From positions 25,916,001 through 25,980,000 of the forward strand of contig CM022677.1 in assembly GCA_012295275.1 (NCBI GenBank): a stretch of DNA of 64,000 nt. Direction: 5' to 3'. This DNA is from Chrysomallon squamiferum. Its lineage: Eukaryota > Animalia > Mollusca. Both the position numbers and the translations under genes were made by a program. Shown in pieces: positions 36,801-42,800 of this stretch; positions within the stretch are counted from its first letter, which is position 1; each line of letters begins with the position of its first letter. Below the pieces are notes generated by a model, which was given only the letters and a program-made list of their open reading frames with translations, did not search any database and was not told the DNA's origin.

Positions 36801-39800
36801 ATTAAAATAATGATTATGTGATAAAATAAATAAATAAATAAATAAATGAATGAATATATAAATAAAAAAATAAATATATAAATATATAAATAAATAAATA
36901 ACTAAATAAATAACTAAATAAATAAATAAATAACTCAATAAATAAATAAATAAATATATAAATAAATAAATAAATAAATGAATAAAGAATACAATAATTT
37001 AACTGTTTTTGCTGTAGACAGACATTAAAAAAGGAAAAAAAAACAACAAAAACAGTTAATCTCACCAAATATTAAAAAAAAATATACATGTATATCTAAA
37101 AATTGAAAACAGAACAACAAAACTAATTAAATAATAAATAGAATAATAAATCAAATAAATAAACATTTTACATATTTTAACCAGACAAATGTATTATAAA
37201 AAGAAAGAATGAAAGAACATAAAATTTAACAACTGATTTTAGATAGTGCCTGTAAATAAAATAAAAAAAACATTTCCCCTCATAAACACCCTCCAAAAAC
37301 AATAAACCATTACAGGCAATGAATAAATAATTATAAAAGTTTGCAAATCAATATATCTTTAGATATCATCTAAAAAATTTAAAAAAAAAAAAATCTTTTA
37401 AAAAACTGATCTGAAAAGAAAACTATAAATTAACAACAAATAATTATCAGCTTAATGTAAAAAACTAAAATTTTGTATCAAACAACAGAATAAACATCCA
37501 CCAGATTAAAAAACCCACATATTAAAAATCATGGACCCTCCATTTTAATCATTTAACTGATTATTACATCATCATCATCATCATCATCCAACCCACCAAA
37601 CTGAATCAGTGAACTACTGGCATTTTAAAACTAAATATTGAAACAATTTATTTTTAAAAAAATCTACAAAAATAATGTATTATCTTTTAAATTTCAGTTT
37701 TAAACAACATGCAGACTGAAGCAAAAAAACACCATGCACAACTCAAGAGAGACAACTCTGCTGTCAGGGGAGGTAACTGGGTAAAGGTATCTATGGTAAG
37801 TAGTTAAGGATGGGATAACTCTTTCTTTATCTTGATGGAAAATCTACATGCAGATATCTTTAAAAGATATATATATAATTAAAACTCCTGATAATAATAA
37901 TAATAATAATAATAATAATAATAATAATAATAATAATAATAATAATAATAATAATCGTCATCATCATTATCATCATGGTAAATGAAATTGTTAACAGTAT
38001 GCTTAATACATAATTTTCTAGCATTCCATAGCAGTATAAAACACACACACACACACACACACACACACACACACACACACACACACACACAATGGCATTT
38101 TATAACACAGACACACAAACACAGTATATATATATATTATTCAAATTGATTTTTAGAACTTCTCTATAGCAATGATCAGCAATCTGATTAAAAACTAATC
38201 AAGAGCAGATAACTCTAATAAATCATGATCAAACAACCTAAAATAAATAAAAATCAAGAACAGATGACTAATTAAAAAAAATCAAGAAAAGACAACTCTA
38301 TGGTCACACCATGCTGCAAATAAGGGTTCCAAGGCAAAACAAAATGACACTAAAAACAAAAACTAAAATTATTTAGAAAAACAAGTTCTTTCAAAAGTCA
38401 TTTGCTTCAAACTCTGATCCTTTTTTTTCTTTTTTTTGTGAAAGAGGATAATTTTTGTAACCAAAAATTTAAATGGGTAATAATAATAATAATAATAATA
38501 ATAATAATAATAATAATAATAATAATAATAATAATAATAATATGGAAAATAAAAAAGAGTAATTATCTTCTTGTACAGGCCCTCAAAAATGAAAACACAC
38601 ACACACACCTGGTTATTCATTTTATACGTGACATTAAAACTAAAAAACAACTATAACAAATAAATAAAATAATAAAAAACAAAAAATAAATAGAAAAATA
38701 ATAATAAAAAGCTTGTAAAGAATAAAAGATGACTATTTGGTTTGTTCATGGGGATTTGCAGTGTGATAAAGGCTGTAAAAAAGTAAAATAAACTTTTATT
38801 TATTTTTTCTTGTAATCTGAGGAGCTGGCGAGGCCTGACATAAACGTCACCTCTCGGTTAGAACGTGAAAACATGTCTCTTTGTCTTTTCTCTGACAGTT
38901 AATATGATTTGAAAATTATCAGTGAAATCAGCAGTCAGTTATTGGTTTCTTTCAGAGTTAGCTTTGCTTTACAAATACCAAGACTGTAAATTTAAAAAAA
39001 AAAAAAATATATTTAAAATCAATAAAAAAAATAAAAAAAAAAAATAAAAATAATAATAATAATAAAAACAAACATAATCAAATAAATACATAAAATGAAA
39101 TAAACAGAATAAATAGAAAATTTAAAAATAAATATAAAAAATGAAATGAAAAAAAAATCAGTCAATTCAAAAAAAAAATAAAATAATAATTTCTCAACAT
39201 CATTATTATTATCAACATCATCATTATTAAACCAAATCAACTTGTTTATGTCACACACACACACAAGAAACAAATTAATTATGCTGTACAACTAAAAAAA
39301 ACATCTAAATAAAAAAAATAAAAAAACTTTTGAAAGAACTTGTTTGACACACTACCGACAACTCTGAAAGAAAAACGACATTTAGAGTTATCTACTCCTG
39401 TCTTCTTTACCTGGTACTCGATACGACCAACGAATCTCCTTCGAGTCTGCGTGGAGAGAAAAAAACAACAACAACAACGTCAACATTAGGTAAATAAAAT
39501 AAGAATTTATAGATCATAAAACACAGAGTATCTGAAATAATGTTAAAATGAGACATACAGCTTTGAAATGATTCCATGCTAAAAAACAAAAAAAAACACG
39601 ATTCTTTAACTTAAATAACAGTTTGATTCATCTTTGCAACTAGTGACAAGAAAAATGATTCAAATCTTCAAACAACATTACAATTAGTTATGATTATGAT
39701 TATATTTCTATTGATATGTATCTGTATCTATATATATATATATATATATATATATACTGATATTGATATTTTTATAATAAATGTTGTATGGGATTTGTGC

Positions 39801-42800
39801 TGTCGACAAAGATTAAGTTTTCATATTTTGTGACTCTAATGAGCATTATTTTACTGAGGCTTATTTTAAGAGATATTTTATAAAAGAGGGAGTCACTATT
39901 GATAACTGAAATCTTTGTGTATGAAATCAAAATCAATGTTAATAGTCAAAAATAAATATAAATGTTTGAAATTTGGTTACTATGGGTATAATACATTATT
40001 CTAAGACCCATTAATAAATGGAAAAAAAAAAAAATAAAATAAAATAAAAAATATAATAAAATAATGGAAAATAAAAATAGGGAACCAATGAATTAATGAA
40101 CAATATGCTAATGATGAAATAACTAGGTGAAATTTTTTTATTTAACTATTAACACATTTAAAACTATAAAACAACATTATAAATGTAATAAAAGTATTAA
40201 TATTAAACTATAAAATCTTGTTAAAACTATGTTCTCTAATGAGAATGGTGAAATAATGATTATTTTCTTTTAAACATGTAATAGAAATAATAATAGTAAA
40301 TTACCTATAATTAATATTCATATATTTCTTAACATAATGTCATTTTTAATTAACAATAAGCGTATGTGTGTATGTGCGTGCATGCATGTGTGTAATTTGA
40401 TATCACCAGTCCACAAAATAAAAAGGAATTTAAAAATACGAACAAAAATAAATAAAAAATAAATAAAAAATAAATAAAAAATAAAATAATTATCTTCACA
40501 AACTTTGTCTTACAAGCACAAAGTGAATTGTTTTTCTTATGTGCAGAGCATTATAATAAATAAATAAATAAATAAATAAAATGATAGTAGTAATAAATTA
40601 TAAAGCTTGGCATTAAATCCAAAGTGAGTGATAAGGACAAAACTAAATGAATTATTAAGCATAAATAAATACATAAAAAAAAAAAAAAAAAAAAAAATAG
40701 AAGAAAAGAAATGTTTACGATACCTGAACATTTTCTTTGCTGACAGTTTCATTAGCAAACTTTGTTTTGTAATTTAACACTTACAAGTTTTACTGAAGAA
40801 AGACTTTAAATGTCTTCAGAATACTTCCTTTATTTGTGTATTTTATTCATATATTCAGATGTTTTTATCAGTTCGACTACATCATTCAGAAGTTTTGTAA
40901 CAGTTTGACTACATCATTCAGATGTTTTTATCAGTTCGACTACATCATCCAGATGTTTTGTAACAGTTTGACTACATCATTCCGATGTTTTTTAACAGTT
41001 TGGCTACATCATTCAGATGTTTTGTAACAGTTTGACTACATCATTCAGTTGTTTTTTAACAGTTCAACTATATCATCCAGATGTTGTTTTCAGTTTGACT
41101 ACATCATTCAGATGTTTAGTAACAGTTTTGGTTTACTAAACTCATTTGTTCTGAGACATAAAACAGTAAAACAGTAAATTGCAGTGTAAAAGATTCGTAC
41201 ACTTTAAAACTAAAAAAACAAAACAAACCCACTCTTAAATTAAAAAATAAAAACAAAATTCTATACATCAATCCCCAAACTAAATCTAAAACACATAAAA
41301 AAAAAAAAAAAAAAAAAAAAAAAAAAAAAAAAAGAACAGAAGAGAAAAACAGTATGAAAAGGGAAAAATAAATAAAAAAAAAAAAAAAAAAAAAAAAAAT
41401 AAATTAAAAAGAAAAAGAAAAAGGAAAAAAAAAACCAACAATAAATAACACCCTCCCACAAAATGAAGCAAACACAGATGTGACTGGGAAGTGTTCAGAG
41501 TGCAGAGAGACAGACAGACAGACAGACAACACACCTTGCCTCTTTCTCACTCGTGGGCGGCAGTCTTGAGACAAAAAATTAAAAATTTATTTCAAATAAA
41601 CAAACAAATCTTTGTAATACGAAACCTCAAAAATAACAACACAAAAAACTGCAGAAATCAAAAGAAATAAATTCTCCTTTTGAATGTAAAGAAAAGAAGA
41701 GAAAAGAAGAGAAAAAAAAAAGAGAAAGAAAGAAAAGAATAACTAGAAAGTAAAAAAAACAAGATAAAAAAAATTAAGATCTTATACTCTGTGTAAAAAA
41801 AACCCTGTCATTTCTTGTTGTAACTCAAACACAACAACAAAAAACTACCCATTTTCCCCCATACACCCATCTCCCACCTTCATCAACACATCAAACAAAA
41901 CAGCAATGTCTTCTTTGTCGAAGGTAAATTCAGCTTTACAGTGATGTAAATTAGTTTTAAAAATATATTAAATAAAAACACTGAACTGACCAAGACAGTT
42001 TTTAGAATCAAACAAATGCAGCAAAGAGCAGGAATGCAATTGTTGGATTGGGAAAAAATCAAATAATAAACATGTTCTGTAGGAAGGGAGATAATCAGGA
42101 AATCAACTCAGTCAGGATGGGACATAACCAAACATTTTCACAAAGTCAAAAAAAAAACAAATAAAATGTTTTAATTAATTTTTTTTTTTTTTTAAAATGA
42201 TTCAAAGTAGACTGATAAAAGTTATATATTTTTTTTAATCAAACAGCTGTTGTCATGGAGAAATGCACATGAATTACATGTTGGTTCATTCAGGCTGGTT
42301 TATCAACAAGATGGTTTAATTTCTGACACTTAAACTGAAGATTTTTCTGAAGATTTTTCTTTAGAACACATTTAACACTTTGTTTTATTTACTCTACTGA
42401 GATGTTCTTTTAAATTATACAGAAATTAATTTGTAAAATATTTCATCTACCAGTGTTTTATATATTTCAGTTATTTAGCTGCATATTTTATCAAATGGTG
42501 ATTTACATTTCAGTACAAAGTAACTAATTTTCAAAATACTTTTTTATTTATCTATTTACTTTATCAAATATTGATTTATATTTCAGAATAAAGTAATTTT
42601 TAGAATATTTTTTTACTTATCAATATATTTTGTTAAGCTGGTGGCTGACATTTGATTACAAAGTAAATTAACTGAGAAAGGGAGACAGACATGATGCAAG
42701 ATCAAAGGGAGGTAATTAAGTGATCTCACCGCTAATACTACTTTCTGTACAGACACGTTGTTTAACCCAGTGAGAAACTGAATAAAAACTTTCTGAAATG

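What the first reader, a model, noticed from the sequence alone, without database searches (positions are those of the whole stretch)
39411..42744. Three frame-preserving microexons in the R12-R13 linker: a combinatorial insert beside talin's actin-binding domain
Seen: the 6.7-kb phase-1 intron between AEAIK(G) and (G)LDWVD is far longer than most neighbours. It holds three AG/GT-bounded segments of 15, 30 and 36 nt, each a multiple of 3, each ending in G and stop-free in phase 1. Full inclusion gives AEAIK-ESSIS-DCRPRVRKRQ-DSKEIRWSYRVP-GLDWVD (+27 aa), with up to 8 combinations. Established: this junction is the linker between rod bundles R12 and R13, where inserts need not break a fold. Inference: a tissue-regulated switch that tunes linker length and charge, adding a basic patch (RPRVRKR) and serine sites next to the F-actin site. 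All three are missed by the ORF track.
Basis: partly seen in the sequence, partly recalled or inferred. Interest (0 to 1): 0.75.

Follow-up and report, generated by a model that had tools for sequence, protein, structure and literature searches.

The report
Mollusc-wide microexons in talin's lid
Two of the three proposed tiny optional exons in this snail's talin gene are real and shared with other molluscs (one from chitons to oysters), and they insert exactly into the acidic patch that helps hold human talin shut, so they likely tune how easily this adhesion protein switches on; the third looks like chance.

Summary
The gene is a gastropod talin, 94% identical to Gigantopelta aegis talin. All three AG/GT segments exist, but only two hold up.

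- 36-nt exon (39411-39446): spliced to the next exon in 1 of 4 RNA runs; the skipped junction is in 4 of 4. Its 12-residue peptide, with an invariant Trp, recurs in 17 mollusc genera including a chiton.
- 30-nt exon (41535-41564): has basic counterparts in six gastropod genera.
- 15-nt segment: scores like background and matches none of 128 inserts.

So four combinations, not eight. RefSeq already models these isoforms; I found no paper on them.

The insertion point maps between K2291 and G2292 of human talin-1. That is inside the acidic R12 patch (E2288/E2294/D2297) that covers the FERM membrane-binding surface in closed talin (PMC6856716). The exons likely tune autoinhibition rather than actin binding; this is inferred. 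A conserved alternative last exon upstream would delete that lid. The scan had not found this before; earlier notes concern other talin exons in vertebrates.

The parts
43398..43503 (-). Constitutive talin exon: last helix of R12, ends at the equivalent of human K2291 (plus the first base of the split codon)
   Evidence: Part of a 1051-aa open frame from 23 joined exons; aligns to 6R9T 2259-2291 and to the end of 3DYJ; spliced in 4 of 4 RNA runs
42730..42744 (-). 15-nt candidate (ESSIS): probably not an exon
   Evidence: Exists; splice-only rank 236 of 2691 and negative coding score; no 4-of-5 match in 128 inserts; best score within shuffle range
41535..41564 (-). 30-nt cassette exon (DCRPRVRKRQ), basic, gastropod type
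   Evidence: Rank 3 of 2691; counterparts at the same junction in Gigantopelta, Haliotis rufescens, Patella, Pomacea, Babylonia, Physella; 0 of 300 shuffles reach the second-best score; no junction seen in this species' RNA contigs
39411..39446 (-). 36-nt cassette exon (DSKEIRWSYRVP), mollusc-wide, invariant Trp
   Evidence: Rank 1 of 2691; spliced to the downstream exon in run X2; both variants seen in it are synonymous; counterparts in 17 genera of gastropods, bivalves and a chiton
36585..36709 (-). Constitutive talin exon: acidic R12-R13 linker and helix 1 of R13
   Evidence: Aligns to 6R9T 2294-2331, 2JSW and 9AZ6; receives both the skip junction and the 36-nt exon junction
36710..43397 (-). 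6688-nt phase-1 intron that hosts the cassette exons
   Evidence: CT..AC joint skipping 6688 bases in X1-X4
49854..49913 (-). Likely alternative last exon (19 aa then stop) in the 7.8-kb intron; would end talin before the last helix of R11 and remove R12, R13 and the dimerisation helix
   Evidence: Short RefSeq/UniRef isoforms of gastropods and bivalves end at this junction; this exon is the best of 249 frames for 6 of 8 gastropod tails; not checked in RNA

Best explanation
The 36-nt and 30-nt segments are conserved optional exons of mollusc talin that insert 12, 10 or 22 residues into the acidic stretch at the end of rod domain R12, and they likely tune talin's self-inhibition by disturbing the contact between that stretch and the membrane-binding FERM head. 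Shown: the exons exist, keep frame, are skipped in the main transcript, one is spliced in, both have orthologues, and the insertion point is K2291|G2292 in human numbering. Established for human talin-1: E2288, E2294 and D2297 (with E2299, D2300) complement the basic PIP2-binding face of F2-F3, and reversing their charge lets more vinculin head bind. Inferred: inclusion moves E2288 10-22 residues away from the other four acids; the 30-nt exon also cancels the patch's charge (-4 to 0, or +1 with both exons), so those isoforms would open more easily to membrane, integrin and vinculin. The 36-nt exon changes charge little (-3), so its invariant Trp and alternating pattern would act by forming a short strand that docks nearby; its direction of effect is not known. 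The 15-nt segment is probably intron.
For: Skip junction in 4 of 4 RNA runs; exact 36-nt exon junction in X2. Of 311 talins of 1000 aa or more that span the junction, 183 are skip forms and 128 carry an insert: 68 of the 36-nt type, 25 of the 30-nt type, 15 both (isoform sets of 20 chosen clusters are over-represented). Trp in 17 of 17 genera, Ser 16, Arg 14, Glu, Ile and Val 13 each. Mapping to 6R9T. Lid residues and 2K/5K mutants: PMC6856716, passages and section 9. K272/K274 contact E2288/D2297, and phosphorylation at T2270 on the same helix affects adhesion turnover: PMC13346677, passages. The window keeps an acid at all five positions (sequence), and four mollusc talins keep the basic F2 and F3 loop residues. 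A second conserved splice choice, the alternative last exon, would remove the lid.
Against: No functional data. The closed form is shown for mammalian talin, not mollusc. In PMC6856716 the F2-R12 contact is described as loose, and the 2K/5K mutants stay compact at low salt. Charge does not explain why Trp, Ser and Ile of the 36-nt exon are conserved. The other inserts at this site vary in charge and sequence between lineages, as expected of a merely tolerant linker. The upstream junction of the 36-nt exon and both junctions of the 30-nt exon were not seen in this species. The RNA runs come from one study, so tissue control is untested. RefSeq isoforms are models; I did not see their read support.
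Confidence: 0.5

Rival explanations
1. The 36-nt exon adds a short linear binding motif (a beta-strand with a buried Trp) for a separate partner protein, and the lid is not affected in a way that matters.
For: Invariant Trp, near-invariant Ser and alternating hydrophobic positions (Ile, Trp, Tyr/His, Val) across three mollusc classes, at almost fixed length (12 aa in 16 of 17 genera, 11 in Patella). Alternative microexons often alter protein interactions (PMC4317164, passages).
Against: No partner identified. It does not explain the basic 30-nt exon or the lid-deleting last exon. Any bound partner would sit on the lid surface, so this is not exclusive of the best explanation.
Confidence: 0.25
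2. One reading: the inserts tune the neighbouring actin-binding site ABS3, by adding a basic patch near F-actin or by loosening R13 helix 1.
For: The insert lies about 10 residues before R13 helix 1, and that helix is displaced on actin binding (PMC11831117). The 30-nt exon adds five Arg/Lys (sequence).
Against: In the actin-bound structure helix 1 is disordered and R12 invisible, so the linker is not part of the resolved interface. The more conserved exon (36 nt) has net charge of only +1.
Confidence: 0.15
3. The site is only a tolerant linker in which exons come and go with little effect.
For: Many unrelated lineage-specific inserts at the same junction (Haliotis, oysters, mussels, pulmonates, Ruditapes, and 46-76 aa in the nemertean Lineus). 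The included form is the minor contig in X2 (depth 8.7 against 48.3).
Against: The 36-nt exon keeps length, frame and an invariant Trp in chiton, bivalves and gastropods. Both variants inside it are synonymous (expected share 24 of 99 changes; about 0.06 for two).
Confidence: 0.1

Closest known systems
NCBI RefSeq / UniRef mollusc talin isoform models (e.g. Patella vulgata XP_055955771.1, Haliotis rufescens XP_048251621.1 and XP_048251627.1, Mytilus edulis XP_071140342.1, Gigantopelta aegis talin-1-like, Liolophura sinensis talin-1-like)
   Same: Same junction, same 12-aa and basic inserts, with skip forms beside them. The Gigantopelta 12-mer is identical to the window's.
   Different: Automatic models with no name or function attached. 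None holds the 15-nt segment.
Human TLN1 exon 17b (Gallego-Paez et al. 2023, PMC9997659; passages read)
   Same: Short in-frame cassette exon at a boundary between talin rod bundles; changes vinculin binding.
   Different: 51 nt, at R1-R2 after Gln665, acts by lowering unfolding force; single exon. The terms 'R12' and 'invertebrate' do not occur in its main text.
Mouse Tln2 exon 54b (Debrand et al. 2009, PMC2702505; passages and section 9) and Ciona Talin-a/b (Singiser and McCann 2006, PMC1702346; abstract)
   Same: Alternative splicing near the C-terminal actin-binding module of talin, tissue- or stage-dependent.
   Different: 54b inserts 15 aa at residue 2458, inside R13; the Ciona variants differ in the C-terminal I/LWEQ module. 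Neither is at the R12 lid.
F2-R12 autoinhibitory lid of talin-1 (Dedden et al. 2019, PMC6856716, PDB 6R9T; passages and section 9)
   Same: The exons land inside the acidic patch defined there; the acids are kept in the window's protein.
   Different: Studied by engineered charge reversal and truncation in mammalian talin; no natural splice variant of the patch appears in the passages read.

Membership tests
Metazoan talin, R12-R13 boundary | Homology of the flanking exons to the end of R12 and the start of R13 | tested here: met
   6R9T 2259-2291 and 2294-2331; 3DYJ, 2JSW, 9AZ6; 94% to Gigantopelta talin over the C-terminal half
Alternatively spliced microexon (51 nt or shorter; PMC4317164) | Length at most 51 nt, canonical AG/GT, frame-preserving | tested here: met
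   All three segments; definition read. Under the stricter 27-nt limit (recalled) the two real exons would be short cassette exons.
Alternatively spliced microexon (51 nt or shorter; PMC4317164) | Both inclusion and skipping in transcripts: 36-nt exon | tested here: met
   Skip in 4 of 4 runs, downstream inclusion junction in 1 of 4; upstream junction not seen
Alternatively spliced microexon (51 nt or shorter; PMC4317164) | Both inclusion and skipping in transcripts: 30-nt exon | tested here: inconclusive
   No junction in this species' contigs, which drop rare forms; inclusion and skip isoforms are modelled in Patella, Haliotis, Pomacea, Babylonia, Physella
Alternatively spliced microexon (51 nt or shorter; PMC4317164) | Conservation of the 36-nt and 30-nt exons | tested here: met
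   17 genera and 6 genera; 0 of 300 shuffles reach the second-best score for either
Alternatively spliced microexon (51 nt or shorter; PMC4317164) | Conservation or exon-like signal of the 15-nt segment | tested here: not met
   0 of 128 inserts match at 4 of 5 residues; 77% of shuffles score as well; background-level score. Orthologous intron DNA could not be fetched.
Alternatively spliced microexon (51 nt or shorter; PMC4317164) | RBFOX motif enrichment in the immediate downstream flank | tested here: inconclusive
   4 motifs in the intron against a shuffle mean of 1.0 (2 of 100 reach 4), 0.60 per kb against 0.33 in other introns; three lie 1.6-1.7 kb downstream of the 36-nt exon, none in the immediate flank
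Alternatively spliced microexon (51 nt or shorter; PMC4317164) | Tissue-regulated inclusion | not testable with these tools
   Only assembled contigs of four RNA runs of one study, tissues not shown
F2-R12 autoinhibitory lid | Acidic residues at 2288, 2294, 2297, 2299, 2300 and basic F2-F3 surface | tested here: met
   E, D, D, D, D in the window; the F2 and F3 basic stretches are kept in 4 of 4 mollusc talins printed, the E342/K343 stretch found in 3 of 4; the window does not hold the head
F2-R12 autoinhibitory lid | Closed conformation in mollusc talin and its change on exon inclusion | not testable with these tools
   Needs biochemistry or cryo-EM

The most novel reading that the evidence does not exclude
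Molluscs set talin's basal activation by splicing its autoinhibitory lid: a Trp-bearing exon kept since the common ancestor of chitons, bivalves and snails docks on or beside the FERM head, a gastropod basic exon neutralises the acidic patch, and an alternative last exon deletes the lid and the C-terminal actin site altogether. One talin gene would thus yield a graded series from tightly closed to constitutively open, natural equivalents of the engineered 2K/5K and N-R11 constructs.
Probability: 0.3. Interest if true: 0.7.

Novelty: new member of a known kind. Interest (0 to 1): 0.42.

Why it matters
How talin leaves its closed state is an active question, and the R12 lid has been probed with engineered mutants and one nearby phosphosite. 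If the reading holds, molluscs supply natural, long-conserved variants of exactly that contact, ready to graft into human talin-1 and test in existing assays. It would also show how an animal with one talin gene varies its adhesion strength by splicing. The exons themselves are already in automatic annotations; the new parts are their phylum-wide conservation, their position in the lid and the link to a lid-less short isoform.

Tried and rejected
No whole genome is held for the window.

Complex prediction of Haliotis F2-F3 (residues 198-406 of P0413) with the 31-residue stretch holding the 36-nt exon peptide gave no answer (score 0.26, mark 0.34; alignments not used; peptides untested by the tool). 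It is no evidence either way. The idea came from a recalled likeness to Trp-bearing F3 ligands and rests on no call.

No junction for the 15-nt or 30-nt segment appeared in X1-X4 or X5. Unspliced contigs run through the 15-nt segment in X1, X2, X3 and X5. Contigs drop rare forms, so this is not absence. X5 covers the intron at depth and looks like DNA. The partner upstream of the 36-nt exon was not shown.

The genome index answered once (matches to simple repeats only) and was busy six times, so no orthologous mollusc intron was read; the 15-nt segment's DNA conservation stays open.

The metagenome scan gave 30 loci: 14 span both flanking exons; 10 of them have an intron at the same place (gap 362-1162 nt) with no match to any segment (best local score 23), and 4 have no intron there. 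They are distant relatives and uninformative.

The first protein search returned mostly fragments, none with a spliced insert. The other lineage-specific inserts have no counterpart among 132 candidates in this intron. QKI, MBNL and TGC motifs are not enriched; the UG count comes from microsatellites. A 7-aa insert listed vanished under score thresholds. Apparent inserts after exon 53451-53326 were not cassette exons but alternative C-termini.

Paper searches that found no description of these exons: talin+microexon, talin+alternative splicing+R12+R13 (22), talin+splice variant+actin-binding+linker (26), talin+mollusc+alternative splicing+isoform (61), talin+E2288+E2294 (68), TLN1+exon 17b+cassette exon (70), microexons+molluscs+conserved+gastropod (71), talin+oyster+mussel+splicing+focal adhesion (84); listings and abstract starts only, open-access library only. 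No supplements were read; microexon catalogues in supplements or subscription papers could list them.
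Full report
Gene and organism. The minus strand holds the C-terminal half of a talin gene: 23 exons between 61983 and about 24700 join into a 1051-aa open frame. It is 94% identical to Gigantopelta aegis talin, 84% to Haliotis asinina, 78-80% to other gastropods, 73-76% to bivalves and about 62% to vertebrate talin-1. So the window comes from a gastropod close to Gigantopelta.

Observation. The three segments are at 42744-42730, 41564-41535 and 39446-39411, bounded by AG and GT, 3n and stop-free in phase 1. 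Such segments are common: 96 of 1096 in this intron. Scored with splice matrices trained on the window's 22 junctions plus a coding model, the 36-nt and 30-nt segments are the two best loci among 2691 candidates in all 22 introns. The 15-nt segment is not in the top 20. The intron (6688 nt) is long against a median of 587, but two others are as long: one is filled by a 23-bp tandem repeat, the other holds a likely alternative last exon.

RNA. Five runs hold the stretch, four on record as RNA, all four from one study. The direct junction is in 4 of 4. In X2 a contig joins the 36-nt exon's donor to the downstream acceptor, depth 8.7 beside 48.3 for the skip form; its loose end is exactly the first bases of the downstream exon. 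Contig depth is not a measure of inclusion, so I say only that the included form is the minor contig. Two variants fall in this exon, both third-position and synonymous; 24 of 99 possible changes are synonymous, so about 0.06 by chance. This is weak support.

Conservation. Among 121 talins scanned first, 17 carry an insert at this junction: 16 molluscs and the nemertean Lineus, whose 46-76-aa inserts look unrelated. No named vertebrate, arthropod, echinoderm, hemichordate, amphioxus, nematode, annelid or brachiopod representative had one, but mostly one isoform per cluster was seen. I then read isoform sets of 20 clusters, at most 15 members listed each. Over all 352 stored proteins of 1000 aa or more, 311 span the junction: 183 skip, 128 insert, 68 of the 36-nt type, 25 of the 30-nt type, 15 with both. 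The 36-nt type occurs in 17 genera: 8 gastropods, 8 bivalves and the chiton Liolophura, with Trp in 17 of 17, Ser 16, Arg 14, and Glu, Ile, Val 13 each. It was not among the listed isoforms of Babylonia or Ostrea, nor in the one Argonauta model. That places it in the common ancestor of these classes (more than 500 million years; date recalled). The 30-nt type is in Gigantopelta, Haliotis rufescens, Patella, Pomacea, Babylonia and Physella; it starts alike and varies from 8 to 22 aa. Patella models show all four combinations of the two. Several lineages have a further private exon at this site. The 15-nt peptide matches none of them. It could still be a private exon of this species, which I put at about 15%.

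Where the insert lands. The upstream exon ends at K2291 of 6R9T and the downstream exon aligns from E2294, so the insert sits between K2291 and G2292. Dedden et al. (PMC6856716; passages and section 9 read, figures not seen) state that the C-terminal region of R12 with E2288, E2294 and D2297 covers the basic PIP2-binding surface of F2-F3 in closed talin. Their charge-reversal mutants 2K and 5K (adding D2297, E2299, D2300) stay compact but bind more vinculin head, and removing R12 raises vinculin and actin binding. PMC13346677 (passages) restates the K272/K274 to E2288/D2297 contact and reports a regulatory phosphosite, T2270, on the same helix. The window keeps all five acids, and mollusc heads keep the basic residues. 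Net charge of the stretch goes from -4 (skip) to 0 (30 nt), -3 (36 nt) or +1 (both).

Mechanism. Shown: two optional in-frame exons inside the lid patch. Inferred: inclusion splits the patch; the basic exon cancels its charge and would loosen autoinhibition, as the engineered mutants do; the Trp exon works through shape or binding, direction unknown. I give this 0.5. Against it: the contact is loose even in mammals, the closed state is not shown in molluscs, and charge does not explain the Trp. The actin reading is weaker because helix 1 of R13 is displaced and R12 is invisible in the actin-bound structure (PMC11831117, passages), though a flexible basic patch could still contribute.

A related feature. 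Short mollusc isoforms of about 2130-2200 aa end right after the exon 53451-53326, at about human residue 2119, mostly with an 18-21-aa tail. The window has a matching AG-started, stop-ended frame at 49913-49854, the best of 249 frames for 6 of 8 gastropod tails. Such a protein would lack the last helix of R11, the R12 lid, R13 and the dimerisation helix, close to the N-R11 construct. It was not checked in RNA.

Comparison and novelty. It works like human TLN1 exon 17b: a short cassette exon at a rod-domain boundary (PMC9997659, passages). It is a different exon at a different site, as it is from Tln2 exon 54b (PMC2702505) and the Ciona variants (PMC1702346, abstract). The exons are already in RefSeq and UniRef models. 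Eight paper searches found no description; supplements and subscription journals were not seen. Earlier notes of this scan cover vertebrate talin exons elsewhere, none this one; one of them mentions the lid and may have primed my reading.

Verdict. Two real, conserved microexons and one probable false positive; a new member of a known kind, with a specific and testable mechanism that is so far inference. Interest 0.42.

Noticed in passing
window 49913-49854, minus strand: Likely alternative last exon (19 aa then stop) in the 7.8-kb intron. Gastropod and bivalve databases hold short talin isoforms ending at this junction; the product would lack the R12 lid, R13 and the dimerisation helix. Worth its own follow-up.
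   Followed up: partly
window 25731-31830: 23-bp tandem repeat, about 263 copies at 92% matches, fills the last talin intron and gives a GC skew near -0.7; it also mimics the donor site and floods splice-site scans.
   Followed up: partly
junction of exons 34273-34148 and 33083-33015 (inside R13): Bivalve isoforms carry 6-aa (oysters, scallops) or 19-aa (Ruditapes) inserts here; no counterpart among 123 candidates in the window's intron.
   Followed up: partly
R12-R13 junction in P0386 and P0585-P0598 (Lineus longissimus): The nemertean has its own combinatorial inserts of 46-76 aa at the same junction, not evidently related to the mollusc exons; the site may have been colonised more than once.
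   Followed up: no
junction of exons 57752-57606 and 57328-57227: Pulmonate talins have 4 more residues here than the window's protein.
   Followed up: no
window 1-24000: No talin-like coding island was seen past the last talin exon in a GC-island scan whose output was partly cut; the region was not examined further.
   Followed up: no
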